DNA of 64,000 bases from assembly GCF_009914755.1 (NCBI RefSeq), contig NC_060927.1. One strand, written 5' to 3'. The number at the start of each line of letters is the position of its first letter. Within the stretch, counting starts at the first letter, position 1. This DNA comes from the human T2T-CHM13v2.0 reference genome, Homo sapiens. Below, one piece after another: positions 5,096-63,260 of this stretch. Made by a program: the position numbers and the translations under genes. The notes beneath the pieces are model-generated. The model was not told the DNA's origin. It ran no database searches and saw only the letters and a list, made by a program, of their open reading frames with translations.

Positions 5096-5647
5096 AACAT
5101 CCATCCATTCTAGACACTGAACTTAAAGTGTTGCAGGACACCCAAGTGAAATGTCCCATAGGCAATAGGAGGCATGTGGTAGGGGTCTAGGAGAGAAGTA
5201 AGAACTGTGAGAGCAGTATTAAAGCAATGAGAGTTGGTCAGATTGCTGACGGAAAGAACAAGGAAGCACTAGGGCCTGAGTTGCAAGGAGTGTCCATAAT
5301 GAGAGGGCAGGAGCAGGCATGAGGAACCACAACTGTGAGGGGAAAATCAGGGCTGGCTGGTGCTAGGGAAACCATGGGAGAGAGAGTGGCCAGAATAGCT
5401 TCCCTGAAAAAAGTTGAAGAGAGTGAGGGCTTGGAGGAACACCCAGTTCTCAGCTTGATCCGGGACCTTGTACTGTACCCTCCAGGGAAAATTCACACCA
5501 CTCTTGGGATAATGCCTTATGGAAGAGGTTAAGAGTCAGTGTGTGTGGAGGTGCCTGGGTTCTCTTGAATCCACTTATTGGGAATATAGATCTTATGGGA
5601 GCCAGAAGCAGGGCTTGTCCCACTCATAGCTTTCTTTCCTCCCTCAG

Positions 5648-5739
5648 CTCAATGTACTTCTCCAGTTCCTACCCTTCCTCAAGTGGGGAACTCAGGAGAC
5701 CAAGCAGGGGCAACTGTACTTCGGATGGTCAGGCCCCAG
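5648..5739 (+). CDS. ZKSCAN7: ZKSCAN7 internal coding exon (AQCTSPVPTLPQVGNSGDQAGATVLRMVRPQ)
   Basis: Acceptor ctttctttcctccctcag| and donor CAG|gtgagc. 92 nt, phase 1 to phase 0, in frame with both neighbouring exons. Confidence 0.9.
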
Positions 5740-6009
5740 GTGAGCTTGGTTCTTTGTGTTTTTACCAAGTCCCCATGAGTCTGGTCCAAGAATGGCTAGA
5801 GGTCTCACCCCCAGGACTCTGCCCCATCTAAGACTATTCCTGTGGCTCTCCTGCCTCATTACTTCCCCTGGAGGTAATGGACTCTATCTTGCCCTGGACT
5901 TGTCCTTTTCGAGGTGTCATCTCAGCTCCTCTCTCCCATACTTTTGCCCATGAAGAGCCCATACCCTGTGCCCTTCGTACCCCTGATGACTCTGCCCTTC
6001 AGGCTGTGA

Positions 6010-6186
<177 letters not shown>

Positions 6187-7587
6187 TAGTCACTTAAAGT
6201 CTGCATGCTGCACAATCTCTTTTCTATATTCCTTGTCTCTTTAAACTTTTTACCATGAAAATTTCCAAACATAGTTAAACTAGAGTGAATAATATAGGGA
6301 CCCTTTCTGCATTCATCACTGAGATTCAACAGTGATCAGCATACTCTTCACCTCATTATGAATTGATATAGTGTGGTTTAGGTAGGGCTTCTTAGTTGTA
6401 AGGAACAGAGAGCCACTCAAGTTATTGTAAGTAAGGAGCTGTGAGTCATAGGCTTAAAGGAATGAGAACCTGGAAGAAACTGATGAGCTAGACCAGACTG
6501 TGGGAAGCAGGGCCTTGACCCTGGGAGCCTGAGCTGCAAAAGCAAATGCATGTTGATGCCTGTGTTCCAGTGTGAATGTAATGCAGCTGCTCGCAGTGTA
6601 TCTGTTTTCTCTCTGCTTGTCCTCCTCCTCTTGCCCATTTTCTTCACTGTGAATCTTTTGTCCTTTTCATAGCTCTTTTAATTTTACTTTCTGTTCTTTT
6701 ACACTTGTTGCTTGCTGTGTTTCCTAATGGCTTGGCTTCTCTCCATGCGCCACTTCAGCTTCCATTGCTACTCGTAAGTGCCTTAATTTTGCCCTACCTC
6801 CAGTTCCAAATTTCCTCAGAGATGGACTTTCATTGCTATAGCCATTACGCATCATCTCATTTGGGCACAGGGGTTTGGCCCAGGCCACAGCAGAGGCTGA
6901 AGCCTAACCTACAAATAGACCCTTCAGTCTAGTACCTGGTGCCAGTCCAATCACCTGTGGCCCATCGTGGGATGCTCAGGGTCACTTGGCACCAAGCATG
7001 GTTGCCTAAGCATCCCTCTCTGCAAACACTGGGGCAGAACAGTTTCCTGAAAGGGCTTCTTGGAAGGGCAGATCCTGTGGTTGACGAGTTTAGGGCAGTC
7101 TTTTTACTGTCCTATCATGTAAGATCTGTTCTTTTTGTACACTTTCCTTATCATACCTCCATAATATAAATTTCCAGTCAATTCACTCTCATTTTTTTCC
7201 CTGTCTCTTTCTTATGTTTGGCTTGAGGTATTTGCCAGCCTCCTCTCTCCCAACATGTTTTCTGAGAACAATGGAACCATGCAATGTTATGGTTGGAAGG
7301 GATCTTAGAGTTCATCACTTTACTAAGGAGACATAGCACGAGAGTAACTTCTGTAAGATCACAGCATGCTTTGCAATCCACTTTTTTGCTTTCCAGTGGC
7401 CCTTCTGACTTGGTTGTGCTGGCTTAGTATCTTTTTTCCACCTGTTTTCACTGACCACCTTCCCCTTCCTTGTTTTCCTGTCCCTAGGGAAAAAAAATTG
7501 AGCTATTAATATTTCCCATTTTGCTCTTGTTCTCAATGTGTCATCTCATTTCTTAACCATAATGTGACTTTTTTTCAGGTATGTTAG

Positions 7588-9145
<1,558 letters not shown>

Positions 9146-9871
9146 TGAGTTAAGCTGTCTTTATAAGCAGGATGCTCATAGTGGTTTCCCGGAGCCAGTA
9201 GTCACGGTGGACCATTCCCTACTTGCTTTTCCTTGGATCACTAAGGTGGGAGAGTAGGAGTAACTTATTCCAGTTCTTACCCATTATTAGGAAGGTAAGG
9301 ACTACACATGTCATTGAATTGTAGGTTTCCTTTTTTTTTCTTTACTTTTAAATTTTAACTTTTAAAATCTATTTCATTTCTTAGTTATGCATCTCATAAT
9401 CAGACTCCATGCTTTTTAAAGACAGAGATAATATCTTCTCTATTCTATTCTACTTCCTCCATTTCACCATTTATACAAAGTCATTCAAAAAGGCTGATTC
9501 ATGCCTTCCTGCCTCTTGGCTATGGCCCTCCCCATCTACTCTTTAAACTTTAATCTATAACTTTTCATCAGTTTTGTTCCCTATCTAGAAAACATTTTCT
9601 TCTGTTTGCTAATCTTTGTCCCTCACAATTTTTGAAATCCATCTCATCACTGAAATACTTTCTTCTTCAAGTACTTTTTTATTTTTCTTCAACTTCTCTT
9701 GATTTGACCTCAGTGCTTTGAATTCACTGGTGCTACAATATGTAACTGTGGTTAATTGCCTTGTAAATTTTGCGTGTCTGTATACTTTTATACCAACTTA
9801 TTGTAGGCTCTTTGAGGTCAGGTATGTATTTCTTTCCCATATAGATAGTATTTTGTACATACCAGTTGTTA

Positions 9872-9877
9872 AATAAA
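9872..9877 (+). terminator. Candidate polyadenylation signal for the finger-containing ZKSCAN7 mRNA
   Basis: AATAAA about 760 nt after the stop codon. Usage cannot be shown from sequence alone. Confidence 0.5.
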
Positions 9878-10078
9878 TAATTTTTAAAATCTCAGCTCTC
9901 ACATTGAATTATCCTTAAAGTATGCACGATCTTTCTCCCCTCCCCAGCTGGACCAGCTGCTTCTAAAGATGGAAGTCCATCTCATCATAGAATATCACAT
10001 ACAGAGGTCTTACTGATATCTTTTACATATACTCCTGGAAGTCTTACTACTGTTACTTCAGCCTCAAAATGCGAATGG

Positions 10079-52355: not shown

Positions 52356-54809
52356 TAGTAGAGACAGGGTTTCACCAGGTGTTGGCCAGGCTGGTCTCAA
52401 ACTCCTGACCTCAGGTGATCCACCTGCCTTGGCCTCCCAAAGTGCTGGGATCACAGGTGTGAGCCACTGCACCCAGCTCAAAAGGAATTTTTATATGCTT
52501 TTGGTGGAAATGTAAATTAGTACAGCCATTATGGAAAACAGTGTGAAGGTTTCTCAAAAAATTAAAAATAGGGCTACTATATGATACAGTAATGCCTTTA
52601 CTGAATATTTAGCCAAAGGAAGGAAATCTAAATATCGAAGAGATACTTTTTCCCCATGCTTATTACAGAACTATAATATTCACAATTGCTAAGAGATAAA
52701 ATCAACCCAGTGTCCATCAACAGACAAATGGATAAAGAAAATGTGGCATATATGCACAATGAAATACTATGCAGTCATAAAAAGAATAAAATTCTATCAT
52801 TTGTGGCAACATAGATGAGCCTGGAGGACATTATGTTGAGCAAAATAAGCACAGAAAGATAAATAACTACATGTTCTCTCTTATATGTGGGAGGTAAAAA
52901 TAATTTAGAGCTCATGCAAGTAGAAAATAGAATTGTGGGTATTAGAGCCTATGGAGGGTAGTGGAGGGGAGAGATGGGGAAACATTGCTTAATAGACACA
53001 AAATTATTGCTAGATAGGAGGAAGGAGTTCTGGTGTTCTGCAGCACTGTAGGGTGAATATAATTAACTAGAAATTATTGTATATTTTTAAAAACATAGAG
53101 GAGAGGATTTTGCATGTTCACAACACAAAGAAATGATAAATGTTTCAGGTAATGGATATGCTAATTACCGTGATTTGGTCATTACACATTGTATATACAT
53201 ATCAAAATATCACCCTGTGTCCCATAAATATGTACAATTATTATGTGCCAACTAAAAAGAAAAAGAAAAAATTTGTTCTCGCCCTTTCCACTGAAAATAC
53301 CTAGAAACAAAGATCTACCAGGAGCAGTGAGCACCCTTCACACCAAAATTGCAGTCCTGAAACACCATTTCCCTCTAAAGGGAACTAGGGCCCTTTAAAA
53401 AAGTGGTTGATTCTATGATTGGGGCAGAAAATGCACAATCCTAGCATTTTGGGAAGCCAAGGTGGGAGGATCACTTGAGCTCAGGAGTTTGAGACCAGCA
53501 TGGGCAACATAGTGAGACCTCATCTCTACTAAAAATTTTAAAAAGTTAGCTGGGCATAGTGGTGCATGCCTATAGTCCCAGCTACTTGAGAGGCTGAGGC
53601 AGCAGGATCACTTGAGCCCAGGAATTCAAGGCTTCAGTGAGCCATGATCATGTCACCGCACTCCAGTCTGGGGGCAGAGTGAGGCCCTGTCAAAAAAAAA
53701 AAAAAGGAATGGGTTCATAATAATAAGATAAAGAGAACAAAAAAAGTAAAATGGCAGACGTAAATCCAACTATATCTTCTTCCAGATGAAATGTGGTCTA
53801 AAAAGAAACCCCGTATCAATAATAAAATGTGAATGGATTAATCAATCCAATGAAAAAGCAGATATTGTCAGACTGGATAAAAAAATAAGATCCAATTATA
53901 TGCTGTTTACAGGAGACACAGTTTAGTTTCAAAGATACAAAGAGATTAAAAGTAAAAGGATGGAAAAAGATGTATTTTGCAAATAGCAACCATAAGAAAG
54001 CTCGAGTGGTTATATACAAGACAAATTAGACTTTAAAACCAAAACAAGATACTATTTCAGATAAAAAAGGGCATTTTATAACAATACAGGTGTCAATTCA
54101 TCAGGAAGATATAACAATGACAAATGTATATTCAGCTACTGAAATACCCCCAAAATACATTAAACAAACACTGAAAGAGATGCAGCAGGGAAATAGACAA
54201 TTCAAACAATAATAGTTGGAGGCTTCAATAGCCCATTTTCAATAATAGTTTAACACCAGAAAGAAGATCAATAAGGAAATAGAGGACTTGAACCCTATTA
54301 ACCAACTAGGCCTAATATAGCCCTAGAACATGCCACTGAAGAATAGCAGAATATACCTTCCTCTCCAGCACACAAGGAACATTCTTCAGGACAAATCATA
54401 TACAAGGTAAAAAAACAAACCTTAATACATCAGAAGGATTTAAATAATACAAAGTATGTTCTCTGACCTAATGTAACTTAACTGCATCCTCCACTCCCTA
54501 GAATAGTTATAGGAATGAAAAGTATTCTGTCTCCAACAAGGTAAAATGGAAAATGTCTGACATACAGTTATTACTAGGCATGTAAACAAATAGGAAAATA
54601 CAACCTGTATTGATGAGAAAAATCAGTTATTCAAAACTGACCTAGAACTGACACAAAGAATCAACAAACAAGGATATTAATGATATTATGACTATATAAG
54701 CAAAAATCAAGGGGAAGGATTGAATTTGTTTAGCAGACACAAAAGATATTAAAAAAATTAAAATTCGATTTCTAGAGATAAAAATGTCTGACATAAAAAT
54801 GGAAAATTC

Positions 54810-56330
54810 TACCTGAATGTCTTATAATACTCATTCATTCACAGGGTTTCACTCCAGTATAGGTTTTCTGATGGCCATTGAGGTATGCACTCTGAAAGCT
54901 TTGCCACATTCATCACATTGGTAGGATTTCTGTTCCATCCTAATGTATAGCCAGACTGGAGGACATAGGAGGATTCCCCAAATCCCTTCCTCACATTTAT
55001 CTTTTGTAGGTTTGAAACAATCTTTGTGTGTTATTCAATAAACTACTTCTAGTCAGCTCCTTTCTTCATTCAAGGGTAATTCTTCTAACTTCTTGAAAGT
55101 GTCTTCACAGGTATCTCTAGTCTCTGGTTTCCCAGTGAATCAACACATAGAACCCTCTTACTAGCTGGGGGCATGATGGTATTCATCTGTAGTCCCAGCT
55201 GCTTGGGAGGCTGAGGCAGGAGGATCGCTGGAGCCCAGGAGTTCAAGGCTGCACTGAGCTATGATTGTGCCACTATGACAGAGTGAGACCTCATATCTCT
55301 TAAAAGAAAGAAAGAATCCTCTTGATGTTCCATCAGATAAATCCTTTAAAAATTTCTTGCTTCATAATCAAGTCTATTCTGTTCTCATCTGCTGTCAAAA
55401 GTAAGCAGAAAACAGTTTTACTCATTTTTTTTTGTCTTGTGGAAACAGTATCATCAAGAGACCTTAAAAAAAAAAAGTCAGATTATGGGTGTAGAAGGAG
55501 ATGACATATTTAGAACAAGAGTGAAGTGTTAGTAGCTCAATTTTTTCTCCATGGGCAGGAAAAAAAGAGGGAGAGAAGTTTATCGGTGGAAGGTAAAAGA
55601 AGATATCAGGGACAAACAGATACTGAGCCATCACAACGAAGTTAGAAGGCCAACTGGAGGGCAAGTGACAAGTTTACAAAGGATGATGTGGTCTTACAGA
55701 GGTAAGATCTTTAGTAAAATGATGAACTGTAGATTCATTTCCAACCATAACATTGTATGGTTCCATAGTTCTCTGAAAAGATGTTGCAGAGAGAGGGATA
55801 GCAAACATCTCAAGTCAAATACAGAAGGCAGAGTAATTATGGTCATGATTACTAAACATGAATATGTTGGTTCCTTTTAATTATCCTGCAGAGTGTGGCC
55901 TGAGGTCAAAGCTCTGCCCAAACAAAGACAATATTTAATGACTCTACCAATTGGAATCCCTTTCTAAGGAAATTCTGAATTGGAAGTAGGGCAGAAATGA
56001 GGAAATTAAGAACAGGAGCTGAAGCAGAAATTGTGGATGGAGAGAAGCCACATCATTAGGAGCCGCAGCAAGCAGTAAGCATGAAGGGACAGAAATTGTA
56101 ATAAGAAGGACTAATGAAAGGGACAGAAGATTCAGAGTGAAGAAGCTGGATAGTGGTGGGAAGTAAAGAAATAGAAAATAAATGCTGGGAGCAGCTGGGT
56201 TGTATTTACAGTGGAACACCGGCACAAAGATTCATTTACTTTTGCTGCTTTGGCTCCTGGACTACCCTGCATCAAGGCATAGTCTCCGGGAGGCCCAGTT
56301 TTCCACCATCTGGTCTAGCCTGTAGAGCTT
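54810..56330 (-). pseudogene. Unprocessed, decayed fragment paralogous to the ZKSCAN7 last intron and last exon (linker, finger 1 and start of finger 2)
   Basis: The reverse complement of 54894-54932 ([13 protein letters not shown]) matches 7984-8022 at 37 of 39 nt. The linker gagactagagatacctgtgaagacactttcaagaagttagaag matches ~7773-7815. The cagcag acceptor is conserved at 55394-55389. Intronic homology continues against ~6490-7650. Confidence 0.88.
55163..55311 (+). mobile_element. Alu monomer (FRAM/FLAM-like) inserted in the relic exon
   Basis: Flanked by agaaccctctt (~55149) and agaatcctctt (~55313). The relic linker sequence continues on both sides. Confidence 0.8.
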
Positions 56331-56619
56331 GCATCTCTTCCCACAGTGGTGAGAACTTTGAACTCACGATTCCCCTCTGGCTAAGATCCTCCATTTTCCT
56401 CATTAGTGTATAATTCAGGAAGACAAGATGTACTAAATAGCTCATTGTCTGTGTATCTGTGTAAAGGCCTATCTACTTAGAAAGAAGGTAAAGGACTGGC
56501 TTCTGGAGCCTCCTCTGGAAAAAGAAAATTAGTCTTCAACCAGACTAATAAATGGGTGTTCACAAAATTGGGCATTGTCAAATCCCCCAACCTTGTTTGA
56601 ATTTAAAAGATTGATTATA

Positions 56620-57135
56620 AGTTTAGGTTTTTCCAACAGCAGAGCCTGAGACAAGGATATAGGTGGAGTAGATTATTTTGAAGGTGATCTTAAGGAGCAA
56701 GAGGCAGTGAGCAGGAAGGATAAGACAGGGAAGGTCGAAAGCCAACAAAGAATGAGTAATTGAGCTGGATCCACTGTGGGCAACTGAGGCTCATTTTCAC
56801 TAGGGGCCCTCTAAGGGCCCATGTAGAACATAGCTCAGACTTTTCTTGTCAAAGGACAGGACGTTGGGGCATTTGTGTACCAATTCTTATTTATCATTCT
56901 TTCAGGTTTGCCTGAGGGGATGTTACTCTTATCCACTTCTTCCAGTTTGTGCCTAAGACCTGGCTGAACAGGCTTCTGAACTTCCAGAGGAAGCCTTCAA
57001 CAAAACAGCCTAAGATGTTATGGTGTATGCTTGAGACAGGACTCTGTCAGGATGGCTACATCCATTCTCCCACAGCTGCATGAAAATCATAGGTGGGCAG
57101 AGGTGACTGTGGTAGAGAATACAAAGAACATCTGT
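56620..57135. mobile_element. Old MaLR LTR (MLT1-like)
   Basis: cagagcctgagacaagga...agattattttgaaggtgatc...ccactgtgggcaactgaggctca. Confidence 0.6.
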
Positions 57136-58025
57136 TTTAGGTAATAAGCAGATGCTTCTTTTACTATGCTTTTAGCATCAAAGAATTTTAGTGTTTTAAA
57201 ATATTCCCTTTACCTGTGTGGTAACTACTTCCATTGTTTTCCAGTACCCAAAAGTAAAGTATCTGCAGAATATCTTGGACTGGGAAGGGCCTCAGTTACA
57301 TTTGTTCTACTCCCCAGACACCCAGACACCTCTAAGGCTAGGAGATACTAGACTGACTTTAGAATTACCACTTTTGGGCCTCTCTAGAGCAGAATGTATT
57401 CAAGAGTTATGACCTTCTATATAAAAGTCCATGTGGGTATAAGCCAAGATAGCAGGCCTCCCTGCCTCCCACCCCTAACGATTATCAAAGCCTTAGATGC
57501 ATTCCCAGTGAACACAACATATTAATGCTTCTCTGCATTCAAATTAGCATGAGTTGTCCAAGGCCCGACCACAGCTAAAGTATTCAGGAGGCTGAAGACA
57601 CTCTTCATGCTGGCTGTCCTGACTTTTCTCCCCCTTTTCCCTACCTGTGTCTTGCCTCAGTCTCCTGAATGATTTTCTTGCTTCTGGGTGTACAAAAGCC
57701 TAAATATAGTGGTGGAAACAGCATTTGCCTTGGATTTCAAAGCCTCACTGGTTATTAGGAAGGTATTTTAACAAATTACTTAAACTTACTCACCCTTAGT
57801 TTCAGTATCATCAAAACTGTCACAATATTATCTGTCTCAAAGGGTTCATGTAAGGAGTAAATGAAATTAACCATGTGAAAGGGGCTGACACATAGCAAGT
57901 AATTTTTATATGCTTTATTTTTTTTCTAATATTCTAGCTTTGCCTCACTCTTCTGGTTTGAACTCTATCTTAATTCAACTGAAATGTTCTGTGATTGCCA
58001 ATTATATACTGTTGAAAATTGAGTC

Positions 58026-58831: not shown

Positions 58832-59625
58832 ATGTGATAGTTCATTTTACATGTTAACTTGAATGGGCCATAGTGTGCCCAGACATTTGGCTAAACATTA
58901 TTCTGAGTGTCTGTGGGGGTATCTCTGGATGAGATTAACATCTGAATCTGTAGACTGATTGCCCTCCTTAACATGAGTGAGCCTCATCCAAGCCATTGGA
59001 GATGTGAGTAGAAGGAAAAGACTGAGAGAGAATTTGCTCTTTCTGCCTGTCTTCTGGCTGGGACATTGGTCTTCTCCCACCTTTGGTGATATGGTTTAGA
59101 TTTCTGTCCCCGCCCAAATCTCATGTCAAACTGTAATTCCCAATGTTGGAGGTGGGGCCTGATGGGAGGTGATTGGATCATAGGGATGGCTTTACCCCTT
59201 GGCTCTGTGTTGAGATAGTGAGTGAGTCCTGGTTGTTTAAAAGTGTGTAGCACCTCCCTCCTCCCCCGACCCTTGGTCCTTCTGCTGCCACATAAGACAT
59301 CTGCTCCCACTTTGCCTTCCCCCATGAGTTCCCTGAGGCCTCCCCAGAGGCAGATGGTACCATGATTCCTGTACAGCCTGCAGAACTGTGAGCCAATTAA
59401 ACCTCTTTTCTTTATAAAGTTCCCAATCTCAGGCATTTCTTTATAGCAGTGCGAGAACAGACTAACACATTTGGATTCCGACTAGGACTCAGACTGGAAG
59501 TTACACCAGCAGCTTTTCTGCTTCTTAGGCCTATAGATCTTGGACTACAACTATACCTTCAGCTCTCCTGGGTCTTCAGATTGCATGTCTTGAGATTTCT
59601 TAGCCATATATATTATATACATATA
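58832..59625 (+). mobile_element. MLT2-like LTR with a nested MST-type LTR (~59087-59469)
   Basis: MLT2 wording flanks tgatatggtttagat...caattaaacctcttttc...gaacagactaacaca; ctttgg/catttgg is repeated at the junctions. Confidence 0.75.
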
Positions 59626-61999: not shown

Positions 62000-62479
62000 C
62001 TACAACCTATATGGCTTCAGCTTTGTACTAGGTGCTAAATACATGGGATCCATGCAGACATGGCCTTTGCCCTTTTGGAGACTTGTTTCAGCCATAGTCC
62101 CATATAGGGGTGTCAGTTCCAGAAGTCCAAACTTAAGAGACTGAAGACCAAAGAGAGGATCAGAGTGCCAGTTTCCTTTATATACACCTGACTTTACCCA
62201 GGGCGATGGACAGCTAGAATAACCTCTTCTTTCAGGGGAGAGATGTCCCTACCATTTGCACATTACCTTGCACCATCAACTTGATTATTATTTAATATCA
62301 TAGCTCCAATATGTCATCATGTGGGCAAGAGATACACCACAGTAAGCGAATTCACAAGAGGGTGATTTATAAGTCATGTTATTATTTATAGTGAGAATTG
62401 CATAAGTTCAAGAAGAGACCAGAAAAGTCACCTACCAGGTCATTCAGACGTGAAGGTCACTCCCTATCAACCTCAATTG

Positions 62480-63260
62480 AAATGCAAATCAAAATAGAAA
62501 TGTCCAACTCTCTTAGGAGGCAACAGGCATCCTGAGACCCTGGGTCCTGTCTTTCATCTCTGCACCCTTCCGGTCTGAAACAGCGGCCAGTTCTTGTTCG
62601 ATGTAAGGAACACTAGTACCCAAGGGCTCAGGAGTTCCGCCTCTCTTCCCCAGTTCTGGGAAAAGAAACGAACCATAGAGATGTGGCTTCCTAGAGATCC
62701 GGGATGAGGGGCGGGGTGCAACCGGAAGTCGCAGTATTCTCGGCTCGGCCATTATTCTGTGCCTCGGCTGCCGGAAGGGCTCGTTCCTGTGTCATCTCCT
62801 AGCGGCCTGGCGCCGAGGCGGCGGTACGCAAGGCTGGAGCCGCAGCGGGAGCCCCCGGTGAGCGGGGTGGGCTCGGGGGCGGGTGGGCGTGCAGGGAAGG
62901 CGGCCCGGGACGCGGGCCTGAGCTTGCTGGGACTGCACAGCCCTCGGTAGCCTCTCCCGGGCCCTGACCCCCGGCATGGTCCGTCGCCAGCTTCGTGTTG
63001 GGGTTCGACGTCGTGGCCTCGGCTGGGCAGGCAGCCGGCCCGAGGGAAGTACTGAGGACAGCAGCTCCGAGTCTGTGTGTGTTTGTGGACCGGTGCTCCT
63101 GTCTAACGGACTCTGCTGGCGCTTTGAGAAGAGCTGCCTCAGTAGCCTGCTCCCCCAGCTCAGGCCTTTCTGCTCTTCCTCAGTCTTGTCTGAGGCTAAT
63201 CCACAGAAACATTCTGAGGTTTCCCTATTACCGGTGGCGCCCAGACTCTTGAGGACGGAT
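62480..63260 (+). promoter_or_regulatory. ZNF197: CpG-island promoter and non-coding exon 1, probably ZNF197
   Basis: CpG-rich. GC box at 62708-62716, ETS/GABPA motif CCGGAAGT at 62722-62729, YY1-like CGGCCATT at ~62746, octamer ATGCAAAT at 62482, donor CCG|gtgagc after 62857. The gene name comes from known gene order only, because no CDS lies in the window. Confidence 0.7.

What the first reader, a model, noticed from the sequence alone, without database searches (positions are those of the whole stretch)
54810..56330. Hidden inverted ghost paralogue of ZKSCAN7 (last intron and last exon) about 47 kb from its sibling
Seen: the minus strand here aligns co-linearly with ZKSCAN7 ~6490-8110. (a) Intron: atggaaccatacaatgttatggttggaa versus atggaaccatgcaatgttatggttggaa at ~7271; the ORF track echoes this as SNHNIVWFH versus SNHNIAWFH. 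(b) The tandem acceptor cagcag followed by GAGAACA. (c) The linker, ETRDTCEDTFKKLE versus [14 protein letters not shown]. (d) Finger 1 at 37/39 nt, after which the match stops abruptly at an L1 block in early finger 2. It has stops, indels and an old Alu monomer, so no ORF reveals it. Established: KRAB-ZNF clusters evolve by local duplication and loss. Inference: this is a dead, DNA-level duplicated gene of the cluster that may be intact in other mammals.
Basis: partly seen in the sequence, partly recalled or inferred. Interest (0 to 1): 0.8.

Follow-up and report, generated by a model that had tools for sequence, protein, structure and literature searches.

The report
Old ZKSCAN7-like gene fragment reused by lncRNA
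This is a very old, broken, inverted copy of the tail end of a zinc-finger gene (ZKSCAN7 lineage) whose inherited splice site and exon now serve as the last exon of the non-coding RNA ZNF197-AS1; it is an ordinary kind of genomic fossil with one neat twist.

Summary
The minus strand of window ~54811-56397 aligns co-linearly with ZKSCAN7 6404-8110, which is the last ~1.25 kb of its last intron plus the linker, finger 1 and the start of finger 2. Identity is 70-73% (E 1e-44 to 1e-61).

In the whole genome only one other place shares the intron and linker: ZNF852, a younger 86-89% copy of ZKSCAN7. Site patterns give ((ZKSCAN7, ZNF852), relic). Intron K2P is 0.39 against 0.115.

The relic is dead as coding sequence: 8 frameshifting indels, 2 in-frame stops, lost zinc ligands and an Alu right-arm insertion. 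No SCAN, KRAB, promoter or further finger remnant lies nearby. What is shown is therefore a 3' fragment, not a whole ghost gene.

No database protein is closer to the relic than to ZKSCAN7.

New point: exon 2 of ZNF197-AS1 (54845-55391) lies wholly inside the relic. It starts at the first AG of the inherited CAGCAG, the position homologous to ZKSCAN7's exon start 7658.

This is an ordinary duplicated-pseudogene fragment turned lncRNA exon. Interest is modest.

The parts
55392..56397 (-). Relic of the 3' ~1.25 kb of the ZKSCAN7-type last intron (homologous to window 6404-7657). About 330 bp of ZKSCAN7 6890-7215 is missing from it.
   Evidence: Identity is 70% over 864 three-way columns. ZKSCAN7 6885-7220 is single-copy apart from ZNF852, so the gap is a deletion rather than a repeat insertion in the others. 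The first ~60 columns are weak (28 of 60), so the 5' limit lies at about 56340-56400.
55825..55893 (-). Short stretch that matches a ZNF852 intron segment (window -60708..-60767) which human ZKSCAN7 has lost.
   Evidence: searches (E 0.018; nhmmer E 7.9e-4), and the alignment. The match is weak.
55389..55394 (-). Inherited tandem acceptor CAGCAG. ZNF197-AS1 exon 2 starts after the first AG (at 55391), the position homologous to ZKSCAN7 exon start 7658; 7661 follows the second AG.
   Evidence: Alignment, sequence print, and exon coordinates from the hub's RefSeq table.
55312..55391 (-). Relic of the start of the last coding exon (linker), carrying a 9-bp and a 5-bp deletion.
55161..55311 (+). 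Alu right-arm monomer with an A-rich tail, inserted into the relic exon and antisense to it. It is absent from ZKSCAN7 and ZNF852.
   Evidence: 151-column insertion. (the longest matches lie in the right arm of the 5 window Alus that matched, out of 6 offered). (dispersed genome hits at 75-93% identity).
54811..55160 (-). Relic of the linker, finger 1 and the start of finger 2 (homologous to ZKSCAN7 7752-8110). It has stops at 55055 (TGA) and 54942 (TAG) and frameshifts, and zinc ligands are lost.
54845..55391 (-). ZNF197-AS1 (NR_046658.1) exon 2, which lies entirely within the relic and its Alu insert.
   Evidence: Hub's RefSeq table, with splice signals checked. No AATAAA or ATTAAA lies in the 30 nt before 54845 (print).
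62436..62511 (-). ZNF197-AS1 exon 1, divergent from the ZNF197 start (62750). Its donor is CTG|GTAGGT. It is not homologous to any ZKSCAN7 5' sequence.
   Evidence: donor; no match to ZKSCAN7 -8000..10000 here; the best nearby hit has E 0.69.
54205..54807 (-). Old dispersed repeat that abuts the 3' break of the relic. Its family was not determined.
   Evidence: 1389 candidates; 103 candidates, 68-79% identity; one copy aligns from query base 6. Pfam was silent.
6404..8110 (+). The homologous part of ZKSCAN7, used as comparator: the end of the last intron and the start of the last exon.

Best explanation
Window ~54811-56397 (minus strand; chr3:44,632,811-44,634,397 of T2T-CHM13) is a non-processed pseudogene fragment. 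It is an inverted, local, DNA-level copy of the 3' part of the ancestral ZKSCAN7 gene: the end of the last intron, the splice acceptor, the linker, finger 1 and the start of finger 2.

It split from the ZKSCAN7 lineage long before ZKSCAN7 and ZNF852 split from each other, roughly at the base of the placental mammals. That date is an inference. It has probably drifted neutrally since early in its life.

It encodes nothing. What it does today is passive. Its inherited polypyrimidine tract and first AG of the CAGCAG acceptor capture transcripts that start divergently at the ZNF197 promoter (exon 1, 62436-62511). The relic's exon, plus an antisense Alu monomer, thereby becomes the 547-nt terminal exon of the 623-nt lncRNA ZNF197-AS1.

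Shown: the homology, its uniqueness, the branching order, the disabling lesions, and the positional identity of the acceptor.

Inferred: the age, neutrality from early on, and that the lncRNA's splice choice is an inherited by-product rather than a selected function.
For: **Homology and uniqueness.**
- There are three co-linear blocks with E 1e-44 to 1e-61.
- In the genome, the intron part matches only itself, ZKSCAN7 and ZNF852 (3 of 3 candidates scored).
- The linker likewise matches only these places.

**The copy contains an intron, so it arose at the DNA level.** The alignment is.

**Branching order.**
- Over 1280 three-way columns, ZKSCAN7 = ZNF852 but differs from the relic at 287 sites.
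- The relic agrees with ZKSCAN7 alone at 47 sites and with ZNF852 alone at 46.
- Intron K2P is 0.387 / 0.385 against 0.115 (n = 864).
- The relic keeps states seen in non-human ZKSCAN7 orthologues (FKKLEE, YQCDEC) where human ZKSCAN7 has changed.
- It partly keeps a segment that ZKSCAN7 has lost.
- In the tree of 150 columns of linker plus finger, the relic attaches beside the afrotherian sequence, outside a starred Laurasiatheria clade (99/97).

**Dead as coding sequence.**
- There are 10 indel events in the exon part, 8 of them frameshifting, and 2 stops on the parental frame.
- 22 of 150 codons are unreadable, and 73 of the 128 readable codons are identical to ZKSCAN7.

**Fragment only.**
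- There are no further fingers.
- No DNA match exists to ZKSCAN7 -8000..6400 or 8120..10000 apart from repeats.
- There is no SCAN or KRAB remnant: best E 0.35, against control E values of 1e-15 to 1e-32.

**Neutral from early on.** Exon-part K2P is 0.29-0.31 (n = 416). Half the intron distance for the relic branch (~0.19) plus a ZKSCAN7 branch slowed to about 0.53 of neutral (0.061 / 0.115) predicts ~0.29.

**Link to the lncRNA.** Exon 2 starts at 55391, directly after gacag. This aligns column for column with ZKSCAN7's ggcag|CAG exon start at 7658. The exon 1 donor is CTG|GTAGGT.
Against: **Timing is loose.**
- AU tests cannot reject placing the relic with primates (p 0.31) or with anthropoids (p 0.35).
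- The relic's basal position in the tree has weak support (62/47) on a long branch of 0.76.
- K2P differs between the two intron blocks, 0.44 and 0.33.

**Fragment or whole gene is unresolved.**
- The 5' limit is not marked by any recognisable repeat or junction. About 200 bp of unique DNA follows it.
- 'Copied as a fragment' therefore cannot be told apart from 'whole gene later eroded by deletions'.
- The neutrality argument rests on 416 columns and a poorly constrained linker.

**Limits on the lncRNA evidence.**
- Exon coordinates come from the hub's annotation table, not from reads that I could see.
- The annotated 3' end at 54845 has no canonical poly(A) signal in the 30 nt before it, so the transcript model may be incomplete.
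- Identity around the acceptor (44 of 60) is no higher than in neighbouring windows (38-49 of 60). Nothing indicates selection on the acceptor.
Confidence: 0.85

Rival explanations
1. This is the eroded remnant of a once complete and functional SCAN-KRAB zinc-finger gene. That gene lay head to head with ZNF197 and shared its bidirectional promoter. ZNF197-AS1 is its surviving transcript: the original promoter and the original last acceptor remain, while the middle exons and the finger array were deleted. The gene may still be intact in other mammals.
For: - The orientation fits. The relic points away from the ZNF197 promoter, and the lncRNA runs from that promoter to the relic's own acceptor (and the hub table).
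- An old age and a basal place in the tree would allow a long functional life in other lineages.
- The 3' end is cut at a dispersed repeat, and the intron carries a ~330-bp deletion. Deletions have therefore happened here.
Against: - No trace of ZKSCAN7-like promoter, exon 1, SCAN, KRAB or 3'UTR exists anywhere in 37500-66000 at a sensitivity that found the intron easily.
- ZNF197-AS1 exon 1 has no ZKSCAN7 homology.
- Exon-part divergence fits neutral drift from the start.
- Among the 26 linker-bearing proteins from 24 mammalian species, and the 2 linker-sharing proteins of the 9 re-checked from the 150 best representatives, none is a second paralogue. All follow the species tree as ZKSCAN7.
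Confidence: 0.22
2. This is a 5'-truncated retrocopy of an unspliced (intron-retaining) ZKSCAN7 pre-mRNA that happened to land 47 kb away.
For: - The copy starts inside the intron with no recognisable junction, as 5'-truncated retrocopies do.
- Its 3' end is missing, so a poly(A) tail cannot be excluded.
Against: - It sits inside the same gene cluster, 47 kb from the parent and inverted, which is typical of local DNA duplication.
- No poly(A) tail or target-site duplication is visible at either limit.
- Retention of more than 1.2 kb of intron is unusual for retrocopies (general knowledge, recalled).
Confidence: 0.04
3. There is no real paralogy. The match would be the generic C2H2 finger motif, a shared interspersed repeat, or a relic of a different ZNF gene of the cluster.
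For: - The finger part alone does hit hundreds of ZNF genes.
- One extra nhmmer hit (59087-59469 against ZKSCAN7 1100-1479) looked co-linear.
Against: - About 1.0 kb of unique intron and ~300 nt of linker match only ZKSCAN7 and ZNF852 genome-wide.
- ZNF197, ZNF35 and ZNF660 match only from query position ~165 onward, mostly 200 onward, which is the finger region.
- The 59-kb hit is a high-copy repeat (7475 candidates) and was dropped.
Confidence: 0.01

Closest known systems
Non-processed (duplicated) pseudogene fragments in KRAB-ZNF clusters
   Same: - It is a local, DNA-level copy that contains intron sequence.
- It carries frameshifts and stops.
- It lies within the parent's own cluster at 3p21.31.
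   Different: - It is much older than the cluster's recent duplicate: intron K2P 0.39 against 0.115 for ZNF852.
- Only 1.6 kb survives.
- It is not in the RefSeq table given by the hub.
- No paper names it: 0 papers hold 'ZKSCAN7P', and 17 papers hold 'ZNF197-AS1'. The 15 listed titles and abstract openings of those 17 are about cancer signatures or ceRNA networks and none concerns its origin. Only one of the 17 was opened (PMC11774234).
ZNF852, the other partial copy of ZKSCAN7
   Same: It derives from the same parent and covers the same last intron and last exon. It is also a partial copy (ZKSCAN7 5102-9769, with no SCAN part).
   Different: - ZNF852 is 86-89% identical to ZKSCAN7 and annotated as protein-coding.
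- In the region aligned and translated here (linker, finger 1 and the start of finger 2) its frame is open.
- In the protein tree it split off at about the base of the anthropoids (84/81).
- The relic is 70-73% identical, truncated and dead.
lncRNAs that are fossils of protein-coding genes (Hezroni et al. 2017, PMC5577775; passages and supplements searched)
   Same: An exon of a lncRNA descends from a coding exon and reuses its splice site.
   Different: - That study treated only cases where the ancestral gene itself was lost. [quoted passage not shown]
- ZNF197-AS1 and ZKSCAN7 are absent from its text and from the 4 supplementary files held.
- Here the parent gene survives, and the promoter of the lncRNA is borrowed from ZNF197.
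NAGNAG tandem splice acceptors
   Same: The relic keeps the CAGCAG of ZKSCAN7, whose two AGs give the annotated exon starts 7658 and 7661 (hub table).
   Different: Only the first AG is annotated as used in ZNF197-AS1. Use of the second AG could not be tested here.

Membership tests
Non-processed (duplicated) pseudogene | Homology to the parent gene extends into intron sequence | tested here: met
   About 1.0 kb of last-intron homology: 864 three-way columns at 70% identity.
Non-processed (duplicated) pseudogene | Disabling lesions relative to the parental reading frame | tested here: met
   8 frameshifting indels, 2 in-frame stops and a 151-bp Alu insertion. Finger 1's last His and finger 2's second Cys are both replaced by Tyr.
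Non-processed (duplicated) pseudogene | No retrocopy hallmarks (poly(A) tail, target-site duplication, intron loss) | tested here: inconclusive
   The intron is retained. The 3' end is missing, cut at a dispersed repeat, so absence of a tail cannot be shown.
Non-processed (duplicated) pseudogene | The parent can be named and is closer than any other gene | tested here: met
   Only ZKSCAN7 and ZNF852 match the intron and linker genome-wide. Database proteins that share the linker are all ZKSCAN7 orthologues.
Functional SCAN-KRAB C2H2 zinc-finger gene | SCAN and/or KRAB exons upstream | tested here: not met
   tblastn with ZKSCAN7 residues 1-275 against 37500-64000 gave a best E of 0.35. The control on ZKSCAN7's own exons gave E 1e-15 to 1e-32. 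nhmmer found nothing.
Functional SCAN-KRAB C2H2 zinc-finger gene | Open reading frame with an array of intact C2H2 fingers | tested here: not met
   About 1.3 fingers remain, with ligands lost and stops in every frame.
Pseudogene-derived lncRNA exon | An annotated spliced transcript whose exon lies on the pseudogene and uses its ancestral splice site | tested here: met
   Exon 2 (54845-55391; hub table) lies inside the relic. Its acceptor aligns with ZKSCAN7's at 7658, and the exon 1 donor is GT.
Pseudogene-derived lncRNA exon | Evidence that the transcript is made, and which AG it uses | not testable with these tools
   No read data were available. Papers report ZNF197-AS1 expression in TCGA sets (listing; PMC11774234 passages).
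Functional lncRNA (miR-425 sponge, as claimed in print) | Direct, tested interaction with its target | not tested
   PMC11774234 states that direct binding was not confirmed by luciferase assay (passage). There is no excess conservation at the acceptor.

The most novel reading that the evidence does not exclude
The relic is the human remains of a third, placental-age member of the ZKSCAN7 family that was once a complete gene paired head to head with ZNF197. That gene survives intact, or as a conserved lncRNA, in some other mammals. Under this reading, ZNF197-AS1 is its transcriptional fossil: the 62436-to-55391 splice has been kept for about 100 million years because transcription or splicing through this interval tunes the ZNF197 bidirectional promoter.
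Probability: 0.1. Interest if true: 0.55.

Novelty: new member of a known kind. Interest (0 to 1): 0.3.

Why it matters
- It gives a concrete origin for 547 of the 623 nt of ZNF197-AS1, a lncRNA used in many cancer 'signature' papers. Its terminal exon is a decayed ZKSCAN7-type coding exon plus an antisense Alu monomer, spliced at an inherited acceptor.
- That cautions against reading function into the lncRNA's sequence. It also means that probes or reads for it share 73-82% identity with ZKSCAN7 and ZNF852 over parts of the exon.
- It adds one old birth-and-death event to the history of the 3p21.31 KRAB-ZNF cluster.
- It is an example of the 'duplicate, pseudogenise, become lncRNA exon' route that Hezroni et al. 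called hard to quantify.
- It does not change any general picture.

Tried and rejected
1. **Apparent fourth co-linear block.** The match of 59087-59469 to ZKSCAN7 1100-1479 (E 5e-45) proved to be a high-copy interspersed repeat (7475 candidates, copies at 76-79% identity). It was dropped.

2. **Identity of the repeat at the 3' break.** Pfam scans of 15 stop-to-stop ORFs of 52600-54821 and 39 ORFs from two other copies (L030, L031) gave no reverse-transcriptase, endonuclease or other transposon domain. BLAST of the flank against these two copies showed only a ~320-bp shared piece. Some motifs resemble old L1 3' ends only in my recollection.

3. **More of the gene.** All of the following found nothing:
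   - nhmmer of ZKSCAN7 -8000..10000 against 37500-66000;
   - tblastn of the in-window ZKSCAN7 protein;
   - tblastn of its N-terminal 275 residues.

4. **Intact orthologue of the relic in other mammals, by protein.**
   - Word-indexed search with the relic read through with X: 3 hits out of 11 candidates, all ZKSCAN7.
   - Search with the human ZKSCAN7 linker: 26 hits out of 265 candidates.
   - Exhaustive HMMER search: 1390 hits, the top 150 listed, dominated by multi-finger proteins. For 6 of them the best-scoring stretch began before query residue 40, and of the 9 re-checked by BLASTP only 2 truly share the linker. Both are closer to ZKSCAN7 (61% and 59%) than to the relic (37% and 44%).
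   - This is a weak negative, because representatives are clustered at 50% identity.

5. **Dating by tree.**
   - The tree used 28 of the 30 rows prepared. Pygathrix (only 64 residues matched) and the duplicate human database row were left out.
   - The relic's place is basal but weakly supported.
   - AU tests reject neither relic + primates (p 0.31), nor relic + anthropoids (p 0.35), nor relic + the two human genes (p 0.10).

6. **Rfam scan of 54000-57000.** No family reached its gathering score.

Full report

Yes. BLASTN of window 54000-57500 against the whole window gives three co-linear, minus-strand blocks against ZKSCAN7:

| Relic | ZKSCAN7 | Identity | E-value |
|---|---|---|---|
| 55894-56257 | 6889-6524 | 71.5% | 2e-44 |
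| 55311-55819 | 7752-7217 | 69.7% | 1e-61 |
| 54812-55151 | 8109-7748 | 72.7% | 7e-51 |

- nhmmer extends the limits to 56397..54803 against 6404..8118.
- The 28-mers at 55766 (minus) and 7271 (plus) differ at one base.
- The linker reads ETRDTCEDTFKKLE against [14 protein letters not shown].
- Every other hit of this interval inside the window is the Alu piece at ~55160-55320.

**2. Is it more than a generic motif or a repeat?**

The whole genome that holds the window could be searched.

- The intron part (55311-56330) has 3 candidate places, all scored: itself, ZKSCAN7, and chr3:44,516,354-44,517,984 on the minus strand. That third place lies inside ZNF852, by the hub's table.
- For the exon part (95 candidates, 40 scored; 150 of 209 matches listed), only these places match across query positions 10-349. 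Every other listed match covers positions 223-325 at most, which is the finger motif.
- Within the cluster, ZNF197, ZNF35 and ZNF660 match only the finger region.

**3. Anatomy**

On the minus strand, from 5' to 3':

- **56397-55392: relic of the end of the last intron.**
  - It lacks about 330 bp that ZKSCAN7 (6890-7215) and ZNF852 both have.
  - That stretch is single-copy, so this is a deletion in the relic.
  - Relic 55825-55893 weakly matches a segment that ZNF852 keeps and ZKSCAN7 has lost (E 0.018, E 7.9e-4).
- **55394-55389: the tandem acceptor CAGCAG.**
- **55391-55312: start of the linker.**
- **55311-55161: an Alu right-arm monomer.** It has an A-rich tail, lies sense on the plus strand, and is absent from both relatives.
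- **55160-54811: the rest of the linker, finger 1 and the first codons of finger 2.**

On the parental frame the exon part has 10 indel events, 8 of them frameshifting, and two stops. 22 of 150 codons cannot be read, and 73 of the other 128 match ZKSCAN7. The last His of finger 1 and the second Cys of finger 2 are both replaced by Tyr.

**4. The limits of the relic**

- *3' limit.* Homology ends at ~54811, where an old dispersed repeat begins. One search gives 103 candidates at 68-79% identity, with one copy aligning from query base 6. Searches agree. The tools could not name its family: Pfam on 15 local ORFs and on 39 ORFs from two other copies was silent.
- *5' limit.* Homology fades at ~56340-56400 into about 200 bp of unique DNA, followed by a ~250-bp repeat at 56596-56844.
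- *Nothing further survives.*
  - There are no further fingers between 37.4 kb and 62 kb.
  - No DNA match exists to ZKSCAN7 -8000..6400 or to its 3'UTR, apart from repeats.
  - There is no SCAN or KRAB remnant: best E 0.35, with a positive control at 1e-15 to 1e-32.
- A tempting extra block at 59087-59469 is a high-copy repeat.

**5. Relationships and age**

- ZNF852 is an 86-89% copy of ZKSCAN7 5102-9769.
- Site patterns over 1280 three-way columns:

| Pattern | Sites |
|---|---|
| ZKSCAN7 = ZNF852, relic differs | 287 |
| Relic agrees with ZKSCAN7 only | 47 |
| Relic agrees with ZNF852 only | 46 |

- Distances:

| Columns | Relic-ZKSCAN7 | Relic-ZNF852 | ZKSCAN7-ZNF852 |
|---|---|---|---|
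| Intron (n = 864) | 0.387 | 0.385 | 0.115 |
| Exon (n = 416) | 0.291 | 0.305 | 0.061 |

- The relic is therefore an outgroup to the pair and about 3.4 times as deep.

*Age (inference).*
- With a recalled mammalian neutral rate of about 2.2e-9 per site per year, the split falls near 90 My.
- With the slower primate clock implied by ZNF852 leaving before the platyrrhine-catarrhine split (84/81), it would be older.
- I take 'about the base of placental mammals' as the estimate and mark it as inference.

*Protein evidence.*
- The tree uses the linker plus finger 1 and the start of finger 2 (150 columns, 28 rows).
- The relic sits beside the manatee sequence, outside a starred Laurasiatheria clade.
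- Support for that position is weak and the relic's branch is long, at 0.76.
- AU tests cannot reject a primate placement (p 0.31) or an anthropoid placement (p 0.35).
- The relic shares FKKLEE and YQCDEC with tarsier, lemur and bat ZKSCAN7 where the human gene has changed. This is as expected of an old offshoot.

**6. Was it ever a working gene?**

This is unresolved, but the evidence leans to no, or not for long.

- The exon-part distance (0.29-0.31) equals what neutral drift of the relic from birth predicts. That prediction is ~0.19 for the relic branch plus a ZKSCAN7 branch at about 0.53 of the neutral rate.
- Only a 3' fragment exists.
- Among proteins from other mammals that carry this linker, none forms a second paralogue. 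Those named ZNF852 or ZNF660 in whale, squirrel, bear, cats, marmot, bat and camel fall with the ZKSCAN7 of their own order.
- In the exhaustive search, the 2 linker-sharing proteins of the 9 re-checked from the 150 best representatives are closer to ZKSCAN7 than to the relic.
- These are weak negatives. Mammalian DNA could not be searched.

**7. What it does now**

- The hub's table places ZNF197-AS1 (NR_046658.1) exon 2 at 54845-55391, which lies entirely inside the relic.
- The exon starts directly after the first AG of the inherited CAGCAG. In the alignment this is the same column as ZKSCAN7's exon start 7658, and the second AG corresponds to 7661.
- Exon 1 (62436-62511) has a CTG|GTAGGT donor. 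It lies about 240 bp from the ZNF197 start on the other strand. It has no ZKSCAN7 homology.
- The simplest mechanism is that divergent transcription from the ZNF197 promoter is spliced to the first strong acceptor downstream that still works, namely the fossil acceptor.
- Identity around the acceptor (44 of 60) is no higher than in neighbouring windows (38-49 of 60), so nothing indicates selection on it.
- The annotated 3' end has no canonical poly(A) signal in the 30 nt before it.

**8. What is in print**

- 17 papers hold 'ZNF197-AS1'. The 15 listed titles and abstract openings concern cancer signatures or ceRNA networks.
- The one dedicated paper (PMC11774234; passages read) does not mention pseudogene, ZKSCAN7, exon or antisense. 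It states that direct miR-425 binding was not tested.
- 'ZKSCAN7P' occurs in no paper.
- Two papers hold both ZKSCAN7 and ZNF852 (listing only).
- Hezroni et al. 2017 (PMC5577775; passages and 4 supplements searched) do not list this locus. They say the duplication-then-pseudogenisation route is hard to quantify.
- I could not consult GENCODE or pseudogene tracks, so 'not annotated' holds only for the hub's RefSeq table.

**9. Verdict**

- It is an old, truncated, non-processed pseudogene fragment of the ZKSCAN7 lineage.
- It is equally related to ZKSCAN7 and ZNF852.
- It has been exapted passively as the terminal exon of ZNF197-AS1.
- This is a new member of a well-known kind, of modest interest.

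Noticed in passing
outside the window: -58587..-63662 (chr3:44,514,338-44,519,413), minus strand: ZNF852 is an 86-89% identical copy of ZKSCAN7 5102-9769 only, running from upstream of the KRAB exons to the 3'UTR with no SCAN part. In the protein tree of the linker region it branches off before the platyrrhine/catarrhine ZKSCAN7 split (84/81).
   Followed up: partly
window 7099 (ZKSCAN7 last intron): Human ZKSCAN7 lacks about 405 bp that ZNF852 keeps (window -60609..-61014) and the relic partly keeps. This is a lineage-specific intron deletion in ZKSCAN7.
   Followed up: partly
database proteins P0014-P0016, P0019, P0020, P0025-P0027: Proteins named 'ZNF852' (blue whale, ground squirrel, black bear, lion, cheetah) and 'ZNF660 isoform X1/X2' (marmot, Hipposideros, camel) carry the ZKSCAN7 linker. 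In the tree they group with the ZKSCAN7 of their own order. These names look like isoform or readthrough-model artefacts rather than extra paralogues.
   Followed up: partly
window 59087-59469 and 1100-1479: Both hold copies of one high-copy interspersed repeat of ~380 bp (7475 genome candidates; copies 76-79% identical to the one at 59087-59469). In a self-comparison this mimics a co-linear paralogy block.
   Followed up: yes
window 54845 (minus strand): The annotated 3' end of NR_046658.1 has no AATAAA or ATTAAA in the preceding 30 nt and falls inside relic finger 1. The transcript model may be 3'-incomplete.
   Followed up: no
window 56596-56844: A ~250-bp old dispersed repeat (26 genome candidates, 68-83% identity) lies 200 bp beyond the relic's 5' limit. 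Its family was not determined.
   Followed up: no
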